From the NCBI GenBank assembly GCA_964016885.1, contig CAXHJY010001071.1:1-64000 (forward strand): 64,000 bases of DNA, in the 5' to 3' direction. A program made the position numbers and the translations under genes. Under the pieces are notes generated by a model, which worked only from the letters and a program-made list of their open reading frames with translations, had not been told where the DNA came from and searched no databases. The first letter of the stretch is position 1; each line of letters starts with the position of its first letter. Positions 29,373 through 51,590 of the stretch are shown here, piece by piece. The DNA is from Eledone cirrhosa. Its lineage: Eukaryota.

Positions 29373-29698
<326 letters not shown>

Positions 29699-37315: not shown

Positions 37316-37482
37316 AAGAGATATATTTGATATATCTCATATGAAATAATACAGCCAATTTTCCACACAATACAATTAGTTAGCACTCCGAACATTTAAT
37401 TAGGAATATACTCACTTATTTCCTAATGTTTGTTGAGTGAGTTGGGATTTGGCCGGAGTATCGCTAAAAGCTTTCTCCGATA

Positions 37483-37487
<5 letters not shown>
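37316..37487 (+). mobile_element. Solo post-cleavage fragment of the 684-bp HHR family
   Basis: Matches ~43584-43755. Confidence 0.8.
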
Positions 37488-37532
<45 letters not shown>

Positions 37533-39312: not shown

Positions 39313-40200
39313 CGTTTCTGAATTTGTTTAGCAAGATTCTTTATCTGAAAACGTGTGTTGAAACCGATATTGTTATACTTTGTGAGGGTCATGTTGCCAA
39401 TAAAAAACACACGCACCAGTTGCTTCACTCCAATTTATTATAAATTAAATTTATAGATTTAAGAATTTATAAATATCCGGTTGTTTGGTTGGTTCCACAA
39501 CCGGACGGTTGTTCTTATATTATCAAACTTCTTTTGTCACACATTCTGTGACCTCTTCTGTGACTGGGGATTCTTTTCTTTGTTTTGTGCCTCTCCTTTG
39601 TTCTGTCCTACGCCATCTTGTTTTTGTGTGTGTTGTGTGCTTAGTTTGCGCATGTGTTACATCCGGGTGTCTGTGTATGTTTTTATTTGTTTATTTATTC
39701 GTTTATTTATTTGTTTATTTACATGTTACTGGTTGGTTATTTGTTGTATGTGTGTTTTCATTTTGTCTTTCCTTGTAAGTTGTGACGTTGCTATTCCATT
39801 CATGTTTTCTATGTAATTTTGATTGGAGTTCCTTTAGGTTTATTGCCTCTGTGATTTGTCTAAACATTGCGTCTTTTCTGTGTGTAGATTCTATTTTTAT
39901 TTCTCTGTTCTCTAATTTGCCCTTATGTTCTATTTTAGCATGTTGGTGGAGTATTGATGAGTCTTTTTTATCTTGAAGGTCTCGCAAGTGTTCATTGAAC
40001 CATTCTCCTATACTACGAGCTGTCTCACTTATGTACACTATATTCTTATCTTTACATTGTCCTTCAGTACATCTTATGCTATATACTACATTTCTAGTTT
40101 TATAGTTAACATGGGGGCTTAGTTTACAGATTATGCATTTATTATCTATACAGGGAGGTCTTTGAAAAGGGTATGTATTGCTAATAAGTGTTTTTTATGG
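39311..40200 (-). mobile_element. 5'-truncated PLE, GIY-YIG C-terminus and 3' UTR
   Basis: VVYSIRCTEGQC..YISETARSIGE.FNEH..HQH..RQITEA; related to 50197-51036. Confidence 0.85.
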
Positions 40201-40272
40201 AATTAACTGATGTGAGTGAGTGTTTGTCGTGGGCGGATAGTACGGGGCCCAAACCTTGGGTGTACACTAAAG

Positions 40273-40309: not shown

Positions 40310-42755
40310 GAGTTAAACAAGATTCAAATAGTACATCAAAGAATGAGTTTTACAGTAGATTGGAAGCACTCTACAGTTAAAAATATTTTCCAGAGTTATT
40401 AATATTAAAATACAAATATTAATAAAATAGATGTTCTTTTGATCAATAAAATGTTATTATACATATTTCAGAGGTACAACAGTACGTCCTCATCAGACAA
40501 AATATAATGATACATGACATACCCTGAGATGTTAAATGGTTAAGATTTAATCAAGGTAGTGATTAAGTTATGAGAAAATTCAACCTTTATACCCTAATAA
40601 TGAGAAAATGCGAAAACGTAATAGAATCAATAGAGAAGGTATGAGTAAAAAAACGTTGCTTTAATATAACAGTTATAGAGACTTTAGAATGTGGGATACT
40701 ATTAATTCGGATTATAGAGGAAGTCGTGTCTGGAGTTATTATTTTATTACAGCTTATGAAAGCTACCGATAGATAATTAAAGAGAGGGAGAGATAAAGGA
40801 GATTAATTTGTGCCAAAAAATGTTTTCCACATATGGACTGAGCGGTTAAATTTCAAAATATTTAATTTATTTTATTTTAGGGTGAAGAATCAAAATTTTA
40901 GGTTTAAAAATTGATGGTTATATATATTAATTTTATTACTTTTTATTTTTGTTTTATTTTTAAGTGTTGCATTTCTAAAATTCTGAATTTTAATGAAACA
41001 AAATTTTAAAGGATTTACTAGGCCCGCGAAAGAAAAATATACAGTGTTGAATATTCCCCATATGTAATCACTAACAAAATTACCTATAACAGTGTCCAAA
41101 TTTTTGGTATGTTACAAATATCGAAGAATTTATTGTCAAGTAGATACATTGTCAAAATATAATGATTAACGCACAGTTTTCAGCTATATATATATATACA
41201 CGCACACACAAACACATGTATATATATATACATGTGTTTGTGTGTGTGTGTGTGTGTGTGTGCAGTTATCGTAATAAATTAATATTTATTATATTATATT
41301 CCTATATTAGTTCTACGTTTAAGGGAAGAATGAACTCTAAATAATGATTATGTTATTGTACAATATATATATATTTGCACAAATTATATATAGCGTTATA
41401 CCGAAACAACAATTATGATTAAGTTATAAATATAGATGCAAACAAATCTAAATGTAGAGATATACGTAACTAATATTATGATTATGTTATTATACAATAT
41501 AAACATATTTGCAAAAAATTAGGTATAGAGAGATATACTAAGTATTAATGAGACAGTATACTTTTGGTAAATGATAACGATTATAATCTTAGATAATAGA
41601 TTGAAATATGTATAAGTTAGATAGATACATATATATAAAAGAGTGTAAACGCATGAATGATTCACAGTTCAAAATAAGGTCAGTAAAAATGTACAGGCTG
41701 GATGTTTGAACTATATTTAAAACATAGATAGAAAAATAAATATAGATAAATAATTCTATGGATCAAAGTTAATAATATTCTAAGAACTATATGTTATGTA
41801 TATCAACGTGCCAGCATGTTATTGAACAAGTGTCATTCATTGAAACGTTATTTCCTTTATAGATGGTTATAAGATAAAGCAATATTAAAGGCCATTAAGT
41901 GTTATAACTATTGATTATGTACGTCTAAAAGCCAAGTTTGGTTGCTTATTGTTTTTTTCCTGGTCTTATTGGAGGCTTGAAATGTAGACAAGGCTTTATG
42001 AAGGCAGTTAGAGAATAATTCACTTTTTTGTTAATTAAGGTCTCATAATTATTAATAATCAAAAGGGTCCCCATTGTACAAAGCGCGCAGTTACTTGATA
42101 TACTTGAGTTGCGGTAAACACCAGTATTACGAAGTTTCGTCCAAAAAATGGAGTATTTTATATTCTTCTCTTTTTAATGACCATATAAGCTGTGATAAAG
42201 AAGTGGATGATTTCCTCTTGGAGTTCGGAAATGAACATTTATGATTCGCAAATCTAACTTTAAATGTAGAAGAAGTCGATCCTATGTAGTTGTATGTCTT
42301 GTAACCAGTTTTTACAGTGCATTTATACACCAAATTACTATCCAAACAATTATTTTGCAGAGGGCAGTCAATTTTATTTCTACAATACAATTTGGTTTAT
42401 TAACATTTATGTTAACACTATTATTAAGATCATTATGCTGATTCTGCTTTAGAATTTTACTGTTTAATTTAGCAATGTTTTGGGCTATATTCATAGTCGT
42501 AGAATAAGATAATTTAATAGTGTGTCTATTAAAAATGGAATGGTATTTATGTTGAGTAGGGAAAGAGGTGTCCAAAGCATTAAAGAATATTTATAAAGAA
42601 TTCTTCGATGTTTGTAAGATAAGTACTTCTTAAACTTTACATACCGAAAATGTTGACACTGTTATAGGTAATTTTGTTAGTGATTACATTTGGGTAATAT
42701 TCAACACTGCATATTTTTCTTTCGCGGGCCTAGTAAATCCTTTAAAATTTTGTTT
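40305..42755 (-). mobile_element. 5'-truncated, frameshifted PLE (WFNPP/Hydra-like type) with long 3' UTR and 5' inversion
   Basis: IFNRHTIKLSYS (42312-42575) and CPLQNNC..NLVYKC..YIGST..FKVRFANH (42127-42390). ~42650-42755 is an inverted copy of ~40997-41097. Degenerate HHR at 40460-40500. Confidence 0.8.
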
Positions 42756-42759
42756 TCAT

Positions 42760-43370
<611 letters not shown>

Positions 43371-43377
43371 GTATATA

Positions 43378-43449
<72 letters not shown>

Positions 43450-43472
43450 CAATATTAGTATTATTGGGGCAG

Positions 43473-43582
43473 CCACTGATGAATTATAGGAGCCCACTTG
43501 ATGGTATACAAGCTCCTACATAAATTGGTATAATTTCACCCAAATTGTAGGAATCCTATAATGAAACGAGACGTCCGTCTGG
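43473..43582 (+). ncRNA. Type I HHR, canonical core, 80-nt branched stem II
   Basis: CCA-CTGATGA-ATTATAGGA...TCCTATAAT-GAA-ACGaGACGTCCGT-C-TGG. Confidence 0.82.
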
Positions 43583-44156
43583 GAAGAGATATATTAGATA
43601 TGTCTCATTTGAAATAATACAGCCAATTTTCCACGCAATACTTTTAGTTAGCACCCCGAACACATAATTGGGAATATAATCACTTATTTCCTAATGTTTG
43701 TTGAGTGAGTTGGAATTTGGCCGGAGTATCGCTAAAAAGCTTTCTCCGATATTGTATTTATTTACTTACTCTTGGCGCAGCAGATTTGAAAAAAATTCCC
43801 GGTATAAGGTTAGCATTTCTTTGTTTATTTTTTATATATGAATATTGATTGTTCCTTATATCTCATTCTGTTATTTTGCCCGAGAAAATATCTGTGTGTG
43901 TCATCACACACATGGATATTTTTTCAATTTCCAATTGAGTTCATAGCACGTGGCCTGAATTCCTTTCAGAGTTCATTGTCACGCGCATGTATTGTTTTTT
44001 TTTGGCGGTAATTCACTTCCTCATTTTTTGAATCAGTTCGAGCACTTCTTTCAGAACTGCCGGACTGGCAACCTGACAGATACCTCAGGCACAGAAAGTG
44101 ATTATCGCTAAATGCTGATGTTGGTTAGATTATCAATATTAGTATTATTGGGGCAG

Positions 44157-44266
44157 CCACTGATGAATTATAGGAGCCCACTTGATGGTATACAAGCTCC
44201 TACATAAATTGGTATAATTTCACCCAAATTGTAGGAATCCTATAATGAAACGAGACGTCCGTCTGG
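44157..44266 (+). ncRNA. Type I HHR (second copy of 43473-43582)
   Basis: Same sequence by eye. Confidence 0.82.
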
Positions 44267-44446
44267 GAAGAGATATATTAGATAGGTCTCCTTTGAAATA
44301 ATACAGCCAATTTTCCACGCAATACTTTTAGTTAGCACCCCGAACACATAATTGGGAAAATAATCACTTATTTCCTAATGTTTGTTGAGTGAGTTGGAAT
44401 TTAGCCGGAGTATCGCTAAAAAGCTTTCTCCGATATTGTTTTTATT

Positions 44447-44501
<55 letters not shown>

Positions 44502-44578
44502 AATATATAATTAAGCATAAAGTGTATTGCAAAATACACTATATATACATAAATATATATACATATATTTGTATATAT

Positions 44579-44618
<40 letters not shown>

Positions 44619-50162: not shown

Positions 50163-51590
50163 CGTTATACTTGGGGAGGGTCATATTTGTGTAATATTGC
50201 CGGATTTAATAACATATCACACTCACCGTTTGGTTGGACCCAACAGAAATAGAAAGACACATCCAACATTTCATCAACCGCATGTAACTCTCTGGCTACA
50301 ACCAAAGAGACAGAGTCAGAGTATACGAAGGCGCCATGGAGAAGTAAAGACCCTCATAGAACTGGACAGGAAAGGAATTTGCCCATTATACAGGAGCAAA
50401 TCACGGAATAGCTTAGATAGGGCTAGACATAAGATAGGGAAAGCCACCTCATGGCACGACAACCAGAGATACCAGAGTGTCATGCTTGTGGGCGCTACCC
50501 CTGTAGAGAAATTAACTAACCAGTGTAGAAAGGCCCTGAGAAAGACCCACTTAAATATTAAGGTGGTAGAAAAGCCAGGAACCACCATAAAATCTCTGAT
50601 CAGCAAAACCTACCCTTTAAAGAAAACCCACTGTACTAATAGGAAATCTATCATATGTAAGGTAAACCTCCGGATAAACTGTAAAACTAGAAACGTAGTC
50701 TATAGCATAAGATGTACAGAGGGTACTTGCAGAAAAATGACAACAACATACATAGGCGAGACAGCTCGTAGCATAGGTGAGAGGATAGACCAACAATGGG
50801 GAGAACTAAAAGGACGAAAAAACGGTTCAGTATTATACGAACATGCCCGACAACAACACGACGGTAACATAAACAACATAGAAATTAGAATAATATCTAA
50901 ACATAGAAATGACCCAGCAGATAGGCAAATCAGAGAGGCCAGTGAAATAGAACTTAGAAGGCCAAGACTAAACAGAAAGAATGAATGGAATAACAAAAAC
51001 ACCCAAACAAACAACACTGCCCTAAGAGAAGTATAAATAAATAAATAAATAGATAAATAAATAAATAAATACATACACAAGCACAATATCAACAAACGGA
51101 TATAAACACACACTAGTCACCCAATCACGAACACACATCAAACAAAACACTATTCACACACGCAAACGATTCGCAAAGAAGACAAAATAAAATAAACAAA
51201 CAAACAAATAAATAAATAAATATATAGACAGACTAAATAAAAATGGCGTAGACATACAATGTAACGGGAGGAAACAATAGCACCACTGACGATGTTGCAG
51301 ATGTGCAACGAAAGAACTTTGATAAACTATATATATGTGTTTGTGTCTATATTGCATCTGTATTATTTTTGACCGTCGGTCAGTCAATGGCAACATTGAG
51401 GACCGAATAAATTAGATTACCGATATAAAAGACACAGAAGCGAAAAGCGAAAACCAACCAAACACTGAGTGTGTTCTGTTATTAATTCTGGCAATATTAC
51501 ACAGATATGACACTCCCCAAGTATAACAATATTTGTTTCGACACACGATTTCATATAAAAAACCTCGCAAAACTAATTCATCGCCGTTAT
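50160..51590 (+). mobile_element. 5'-truncated PLE (GIY-YIG to 51036) with inverted pLTR at its 5' end and HHR-like core 51283-51322
   Basis: NCKTRNVVYSIRCTEGTC..YIGETARS..RQIREA. 50160-50238 is an inverted copy of ~51455-51535. Confidence 0.88.

What the first reader, a model, noticed from the sequence alone, without database searches (positions are those of the whole stretch)
43445..44448. 684-bp-period HHR element whose stem II is an 80-nt branched, potentially switchable domain
Seen: canonical core with a 9-bp stem II (ATTATAGGA/TCCTATAAT) enclosing CTTG/CAAG and TCCTACA..TGTAGGA hairpins. The 5' stem II strand can alternatively pair as TAGGAGC/GCTCCTA (43487-43493 with ~43512-43518), which competes with the active fold. 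Both HHR copies appear identical and there is no ORF. Inference: a co-transcriptional folding switch or delay of self-cleavage in a retrozyme-like RNA of ~684 nt.
Basis: partly seen in the sequence, partly recalled or inferred. Interest (0 to 1): 0.75.

Follow-up and report, generated by a model that had tools for sequence, protein, structure and literature searches.

The report
Retrozyme hammerhead with conserved two-armed cap
This is a damaged copy of a non-coding repeat, present thousands of times in this animal genome and likely spread by Penelope-type jumping-gene enzymes, whose predicted self-cutting RNA carries an unusually large two-armed side domain kept by matched base changes across subfamilies, whereas the proposed folding switch pairs fully only in the window's own subfamily and is likely a by-product.

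Summary
Both hammerheads, the 684-nt period and the competing helix are real, but this locus is a rare damaged copy. The family (7,126 matches of one motif; at least eight subfamilies) has a 93-97-nt stem II domain (50 of 50 sampled). The 80-nt form is a 15-nt deletion seen 4 times genome-wide, here with a stem I mismatch as well. The intact domain is conserved: stems I-III and both arms show compensatory changes. A different pairing, 5'-flank GGGC with junction GCCC, is kept in all subfamilies (pseudoknot brace or lock; no covariation). Stem III is palindromic, as in dimer-acting Penelope hammerheads. Copies have a fixed 3' end about 185 nt past the cut site, run into (TA)n and are 5'-truncated, with 5' ends piling up just after the cut (15 of 68), suggesting cleavage in vivo. 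Verdict: Penelope-mobilised non-LTR retrozyme, new ribozyme variant; cleavage, circles and the partner enzyme are not shown. The scan noted other long-stem-II retrozyme families before, on other DNA; none matched this sequence.

The parts
43446..44448 (+). Whole insertion: 1.46 tandem units of subfamily A1 (unit 1 43446-44129, partial unit 2 44130-44448)
43236..43445 (.). (TA)n target run at the 5' junction
44450..44618 (.). (TA)n run at the fixed 3' end
   Evidence: 86 of 90 sampled copies end in a TA run
43467..43470 (+). GGGC 5' of stem I, complementary to junction GCCC 43492-43495 (pseudoknot brace or lock); copy 2 at +684
   Evidence: 4/4 pairs in 39 of 50 unselected domains, consensus motif the same in all subfamilies; no convincing covariation
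43472..43475 (+). Stem I 5' strand, pairing with 43580-43583; G43472 is a private mismatch (family C)
   Evidence: C-G to U-A change in 11 vs 19 rows; private change
43476..43482 (+). Hammerhead core CUGAUGA, copy 1 (copy 2 44160-44166)
43483..43562 (+). Stem II domain: 9-bp stem, GCCCA junction, arm 1, arm 2 (80 nt here, 93-97 nt in the family); copy 2 44167-44246
43497..43512 (+). Arm 1 remnant; 15 nt deleted between TTGA microhomologies
   Evidence: 4 of 9 arm-1 pairs change on both sides in the intact family
43514..43552 (+). Arm 2: 7-bp stem, internal loop, 3-bp GGW/WCC hairpin
   Evidence: U-A/C-G and A-U/U-A double changes
43487..43518 (+).
43563..43579 (+). GAAA, 3-bp stem III with palindromic loop (43570-43575), GUC triplet; predicted cut after 43579 (copy 2 after 44263)
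43586..43606 (+). Hairpin just after the cut site, present in each subfamily folded singly; region where 5' ends of copies pile up
43622..43748 (+). Conserved 3' domain and terminal hairpin just before the fixed 3' end (copy 2 44306-44432); likely recognition site for reverse transcription
   Evidence: 8 of 35 predicted pairs change on both sides in 15 rows; function inferred

Best explanation
The locus is a deletion-damaged 1.46-unit copy of an abundant non-coding tandem repeat family, likely a non-LTR retrozyme copied into (TA)n runs by a Penelope-type reverse transcriptase/endonuclease, whose hammerhead is predicted to cut mainly as a dimer and carries a conserved two-armed stem II cap that likely braces stem II to the 5' flank of stem I rather than switching it. 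Shown: anatomy, copy number, subfamilies, compensatory changes, fixed 3' ends, 5' truncation, TA targeting. Inferred: (1) tandem transcripts pair their palindromic stems III and are cut after GUH; (2) the early-forming GGGC/GCCC helix persists as a pseudoknot standing in for the loop I-loop II contact, with the arms as a scaffold or protein dock; (3) reverse transcription starts internally about 185 nt 3' of the cut, behind a conserved 3' domain, on cut linear RNA (about a fifth of copies stop at the cut) or on uncut or re-ligated circular RNA (the rest read through); (4) the UAGGAGC/GCUCCUA helix arose in A1 when two separate compensatory changes made stem II and arm 2 alike, and acts at most as a transient trap, strongest in this deleted copy.
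For: Copy number 900 / 7,126 with zero in reversed controls. Domain 93-97 nt in 50 of 50. Named structure: 95.2% cells paired vs 89.3+-0.5 shuffled and 33-50% slid; 88 double-change cells vs 29; G-U intermediates between subfamilies. Stem III a perfect palindrome of three different sequences in 19 of 32 rows; dimer -6.4 to -14.7 kcal/mol vs monomer 0 to -0.6. Triplet GUU/GUC in 49 of 50. 3' ends mostly +164 to +200, 86 of 90 into TA. 5' ends at +6 to +18: 15 of 68, 1.28 per 100 copy-nt vs 0.15-0.23 in flanking zones, 0 of 53 in the next 20 nt. Short helix I, long helix II and palindromic helix III are described for PLE hammerheads (PMC4209133), internal initiation at AT-rich targets for a PLE (PMC11167929), PLE origin of retrozymes in 10.64898/2026.07.22.740005.
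Against: On the two measures the tool calls robust to relatedness the structure does not beat shuffles (12 pairs with double change vs 10.1, 84/500; further pair types 27 vs 31.8); rows were hand-picked. GGGC/GCCC has no covariation, and a 9-bp stem II against a 4-bp stem I may be poor geometry for a brace (my reasoning; PMC3088659 passages show such pseudoknots are length-sensitive). The 5'-end pile-up window was chosen after seeing the data and overlaps a TA-like tract and a hairpin. No autonomous element sharing sequence with the family was found. In PAc, hammerhead cleavage was dispensable for insertion in vitro (PMC11167929); 8 of 9 Xenopus retrozyme dimers did not cleave (preprint).
Confidence: 0.65

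Rival explanations
1. Same element, but GGGC/GCCC is a conserved lock: it forms first, holds the core inactive, and is released by a protein binding the arms, making a protein-gated ribozyme.
For: Nested folding predicts this helix from early transcription and at P 0.15-0.99 in full-length A2, A4, A5, A7 copies, competing with stem II; stem lengths look mismatched for a brace; most copies read through the cut site (53 of 68); the PAc hammerhead needs its protein to cleave (PMC11167929).
Against: The folding program cannot model pseudoknots, so the competition may be an artefact; loop II/5'-flank pseudoknots enhance cleavage in tested hammerheads (PMC3088659 passages).
Confidence: 0.2
2. One reading: the UAGGAGC/GCUCCUA helix is a selected co-transcriptional switch that delays cleavage.
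For: P about 1 as a folding intermediate in A1 and this copy; final P 0.23-0.80 (window) and 0.03-0.30 (intact A1) depending on flank length; A1 copies stop at the cut less often (2/19 vs 13/61), not significant.
Against: No covariation, broken in 28 of 32 rows; absent from the other successful subfamilies; each strand is explained by its own covarying partner; the form in which it is strongest never amplified (4 junction matches).
Confidence: 0.08
3. The domain is mainly a binding or packaging element for the mobilising protein, and cleavage is slow or irrelevant to spreading.
For: HHR mutants did not affect PAc insertion in vitro (PMC11167929); U-U at 10.1-11.1 and GUU triplets in several subfamilies.
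Against: Core, NUH rule and palindromic stem III are all kept across subfamilies; 5' ends pile up after the cut site.
Confidence: 0.07

Closest known systems
Metazoan non-LTR retrozymes (PMC7229834, parts 2-3 of 6 read; bioRxiv 10.64898/2026.07.22.740005, parts 1-3 of 5 read)
   Same: Non-coding head-to-tail units, one type I hammerhead per unit, thousands of copies, AT-rich, dimer-type stem III, co-existing PLE-like ORF fragments in the genome.
   Different: Units about 650-1,010 nt (170-400 nt in PMC7229834; up to 972 in the preprint); 95-nt branched stem II domain; circular RNA not shown; no autonomous relative found.
Minimal type I hammerheads of metazoan Penelope-like elements (PMC4209133, parts 1-2 of 4 read)
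   Same: Helix I 4 bp, long helix II, palindromic helix III, many sequence subfamilies with compensatory changes.
   Different: Helix II capped by a three-way junction with two covarying arms and a pairing to the 5' flank; 10.1-11.1 pair is A-U, U-U or G-C by subfamily; no ORF between ribozymes.
Pseudoknot-stabilised hammerheads (PMC3088659, passages read)
   Same: Short Watson-Crick pairing links the stem II cap to sequence beside stem I; U10.1-U11.1 is precedented.
   Different: Here stem II is 5 bp longer than stem I and the pairing is invariant, so brace versus lock is open.
PAc Poseidon element of Anolis (PMC11167929, parts 1-2 of 4 read)
   Same: Fixed 3' end internal to the unit, downstream of the hammerhead; AT-rich targets.
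   Different: PAc is autonomous and has two start sites (a tail); this family shows essentially one end.

Membership tests
Type I hammerhead ribozyme | Core CUGAnGA, GAAA, NUH with A15.1-U16.1 | tested here: met
   All 32 aligned rows; GUU/GUC in 49 of 50; the search patterns required most of the core
Type I hammerhead ribozyme | Three helices supported by compensatory change | tested here: met
   Stem I 1 pair, stem II 3 pairs, stem III 1 pair with double changes; window copy has a 3-bp stem I
Type I hammerhead ribozyme | Match to an Rfam hammerhead model | tested here: not met
   No hammerhead hit; expected with a large insert
Type I hammerhead ribozyme | Self-cleavage | not testable with these tools
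   Only indirect: 5'-end pile-up after the predicted site
PLE-type minimal hammerhead | Helix I 4-5 bp, helix II long, palindromic helix III | tested here: met
   4 bp, 9 bp; perfect palindrome in 19 of 32 rows, 1-2 mismatches in 5, palindromic loop in 8
PLE-type minimal hammerhead | G10.1-C11.1 and an extra nucleotide before helix II | tested here: inconclusive
   G-C in 8, A-U in 7, unpaired in 17 of 32 rows; extra nucleotide only in A6
Metazoan non-LTR retrozyme | Non-coding tandem units, each with a type I hammerhead | tested here: met
   Arrays up to about 5 units; longest stop-free stretch 65 codons in the three units tested
Metazoan non-LTR retrozyme | Unit size | tested here: inconclusive
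   About 650-1,010 nt: above 170-400 nt of PMC7229834, mostly within 51-972 bp of the preprint
Metazoan non-LTR retrozyme | Abundant linear and circular RNA | not testable with these tools
   Needs an RNA experiment
Non-autonomous Penelope-like element | Partial-tandem, 5'-truncated insertions with fixed internal 3' end in (TA)n | tested here: met
Non-autonomous Penelope-like element | Sequence homology to an autonomous PLE pLTR | tested here: inconclusive
   No homology to the PLE-like family C ends; no ORF upstream in 5 A6-type loci; genome not searched exhaustively
Non-autonomous Penelope-like element | 30-40-nt tail (second start site) and inverted arms | tested here: inconclusive
   One main 3' end; inverted arms in L011 and L266, not counted cleanly

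The most novel reading that the evidence does not exclude
A natural protein-gated hammerhead: the invariant GGGC/GCCC helix locks the nascent ribozyme, and the two-armed cap is a docking site through which the Penelope protein (or a partner ribozyme in the dimer) releases it, so that cutting and circularisation are tied to loading of the reverse transcriptase; large stem II domains of this kind are a common, descriptor-invisible class of retroelement ribozymes.
Probability: 0.2. Interest if true: 0.75.

Novelty: new variant of a known kind. Interest (0 to 1): 0.47.

Why it matters
Natural eukaryotic hammerheads are catalogued with small loops, and searches cap loop size, so a family with thousands of copies and a 95-nt covarying cap is missed by Rfam. 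Its subfamilies form a natural mutant series for asking why Penelope-type hammerheads cut poorly alone and what helps them in vivo. The 5'-end pile-up is genomic evidence that cut RNA serves as template, where PAc RNA-seq showed no ends at the cut. The locus itself is a dead-end variant and a poor construct for experiments.

Tried and rejected
No RNA holder listed among sequencing runs; laying four contig sets of unrecorded kind, from one study, showed the tandem joint and one contig with the 15 nt present, and could not address RNA ends. Alternative reading of stem III with a cut at the first GUC: rejected, stem I then fails and covariation supports the second. A longer pseudoknot between arm 1 loop and upstream AT-rich flank: rejected, no matching change in A3-A5. 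Pairing of arm 2 loop with upstream GUGAUUAU: rejected, not kept in A4/A5. Search for short-stem-II members: only scattered single-copy deletions; the reversed control exceeded the pattern count, so that total means nothing. Search for a compensating GGGC/GCCC subfamily: none; it returned more subfamilies and point mutants. Pfam on 5 family C ORF fragments: no hit above cut-off, so their PLE identity rests on motifs (YVDD, CxxC linker, YIGET, His/Cys pattern; recalled and PMC8557442 passages). Protein atlas unavailable. Family B alignment had one row on the wrong strand and was not used for counts. Literature searches for a natural branched stem II found no description of this family or architecture; Lunse 2017 and Hammann 2012 were not held and, with unread supplements of the PLE papers, may hold precedents.

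Full report
Observation. The window is contig C1098 of a 3.0-Gb animal genome (probably a cephalopod, from recall and earlier notes, not tested). A 300-nt direct repeat with spacing 684 lies between two (TA)n runs. Each copy has CTGATGA, a 9-bp stem II, GAAA, a 3-bp stem III and GUC followed by UGGG. The stem II domain is 80 nt, the insert 62 nt. The ribozymes are identical; the repeats differ at 5 sites further on. Rfam reports no hammerhead.

The locus is a damaged member of a large family. A stem III/I motif has 900 exact matches and a 3' motif 7,126, both with 0 in reversed controls. The best genomic matches have a 708-nt unit and a 95-nt domain. The deletion junction occurs 4 times: twice here and at two loci on C3 that differ from each other in diagnostic letters, so it probably recurred between TTGA microhomologies. 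Against a consensus of 16 A1 units the window unit has the 15-nt deletion, a 9-nt deletion and 4 substitutions, one breaking stem I; both window copies share the 15-nt deletion and the stem I change, so they came from one template lineage. In 93 loci taken by the 3' motif alone (the first 100 of 7,126 matches, all on C1, array duplicates merged), all 50 complete domains are 93-97 nt.

The intact domain is conserved as structure. Pattern searches gave at least eight subfamilies, with units of about 650-1,010 nt. I aligned 32 hand-picked copies, 2-4 per subfamily; 12 came from one search, which selected a non-C in the junction, and so bias against that pairing. On the named structure 95.2% of cells pair (shuffles 89.3, slid 33-50) with 88 double-change cells (shuffles 29); 12 of 39 pairs change on both sides, spread over stem I, stem II, both arms and stem III. 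Against this, the count of such pairs and of pair types does not beat shuffles (84/500 and 500/500), and the tool warns that relatedness inflates the other measures. G-U intermediates link A2 to A1 in both stem II and arm 2. RNAalifold alone finds both arms, an inner GGW/WCC hairpin and GGGC/GCCC.

The proposed switch. It is 7/7 in 10 of 48 scorable unselected domains, all A1. Predicted probability at full length is 0.80 or 0.23 for the window copy and 0.30 or 0.03 for intact A1, depending on 14 or 22 nt of flank, and at most 0.01 in the other subfamilies folded. During transcription it is the dominant predicted fold in A1 for about 35 nt, with a findpath barrier of 15-16 kcal/mol. So it is a plausible trap in one subfamily, but each strand is explained by its own covarying partner.

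A better candidate for a long-range contact is GGGC, 5' of stem I, with GCCC after stem II. It is the consensus in every subfamily while neighbouring flank letters vary; 39 of 50 unselected domains have 4/4 pairs, 6 have 3, 5 have 2. It shows no convincing double change, and a search for a compensating subfamily found none. It is topologically compatible with stems I and II as a pseudoknot, a known way to brace hammerheads (PMC3088659, passages), but stem II is 5 bp longer than stem I, so a lock is a serious rival (inference). Nested folding makes it the first helix to form in A2, A4, A5 and A7.

Stem III points to dimers. It is a perfect palindrome in 19 of 32 rows, in three sequences differing at central positions that cannot pair within one strand; A1 has a palindromic loop. 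Predicted dimer energies are -6.4 to -14.7 kcal/mol, monomers 0 to -0.6. This matches PLE hammerheads (PMC4209133; PMC6765202 passages).

Insertion pattern. Of 93 loci I dropped 3 (end outside the region, poor reference, atypical end). 3' ends fall mostly at +164 to +200 from the cut (7 higher values reflect alignment into TA runs) and 86 of 90 run into TA, right behind a 3' domain with 8 of 35 pairs doubly changed in 15 rows. 5' ends vary. Among 78 copies at least 90% identical to a reference unit, 15 of 68 reaching the cut zone stop at +6 to +18, 0 of 53 in the next 20 nt, and 2 of 47 at the TA-like tract of arm 1; rate 1.28 vs 0.15-0.23 per 100 copy-nt, p about 1e-7 for a window chosen after viewing (15 of 80 with all 90). 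This fits reverse transcription running off cut RNA and joining at the nearest TA microhomology, but a hairpin covers the same zone. 53 of 68 read through; 15 of 78 exceed one unit; 6 of 18 long copies stop at about exactly one unit, two with doubtful boundaries, compatible with a circle or with microhomology. A1 does not differ from the rest (2/19 vs 13/61, p=0.5). Fixed internal start, AT-rich target and partial tandems match PLE biology (PMC11167929; PMC8557442 passages).

Partner. Fragments of a PLE-like ORF with RT and endonuclease motifs and a minimal hammerhead (family C) occur in the genome and twice or more in the window, end in the first codons of their ORF and sit in TA runs, often next to family A copies. 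Pfam did not name them and they share no sequence with family A, so the partner is unidentified.

Comparison and verdict. It works like a metazoan non-LTR retrozyme, a class that a 2026 preprint derives from PLE pLTRs (10.64898/2026.07.22.740005); RNA-level criteria are untested. The class is known and the scan has noted other such families in this genome, one with a long stem II, though none matched this sequence. What is new is the 95-nt covarying two-armed cap with a flank pairing; my searches found no description, but two key papers were not held and supplements were not read. New variant of a known kind; interest 0.47.

Noticed in passing
window 37316-37496 (+): Solo fragment of an older subfamily of the same element, starting about 5 nt after the predicted cut and ending at the usual 3' end in TA.
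   Followed up: partly
window 50237-50979 (+), 39805-40215 (-): Penelope-like RT/endonuclease fragments, about 83-93% and 47-49% identical to family C fragments.
   Followed up: partly
L095, L096, L101-L103, L109, L117, L127, L141 (family B): Another non-coding tandem hammerhead family (unit 719 in L127) with 2-5-bp stem II, 8-9-bp stem I and a 34-38-nt loop complementary over 10 or more bases to the 5' flank of stem I; frequent inverted 5' arms. Complementarity judged by eye.
   Followed up: partly
L222 and listed relatives on C3, C4, C6; L214; L157: Further hammerhead-like motifs with 80-100-nt stem II regions unrelated to family A; L214 has a long palindromic stem III; L157 lacks an obvious cut triplet.
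   Followed up: no
L030/L336, L073, L221, L242, L112, L328: Family C 3' ends abut family A copies in both orientations; in L030/L336 only 4-5 nt separate the C end from an A copy that starts at the cut site (template switch or shared TA target).
   Followed up: partly
window 29458-29566: Long near-perfect GC-rich hairpin, next to TA/AG repeats; similar letters flank HHR-like hits L139/L140.
   Followed up: no
window 40996-41112 and 42639-42755; 42757-42954 and 43061-43258: A 117-nt inverted repeat 1.5 kb apart and a 198-nt direct repeat just upstream of the element, likely other repeats.
   Followed up: no
window 43691-43709: Invariant motif in the 3' domain containing a GTGAGT splice-donor-like sequence; A4/A5 have GGTAAG about 45 nt upstream of the core. 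Splicing not tested.
   Followed up: no
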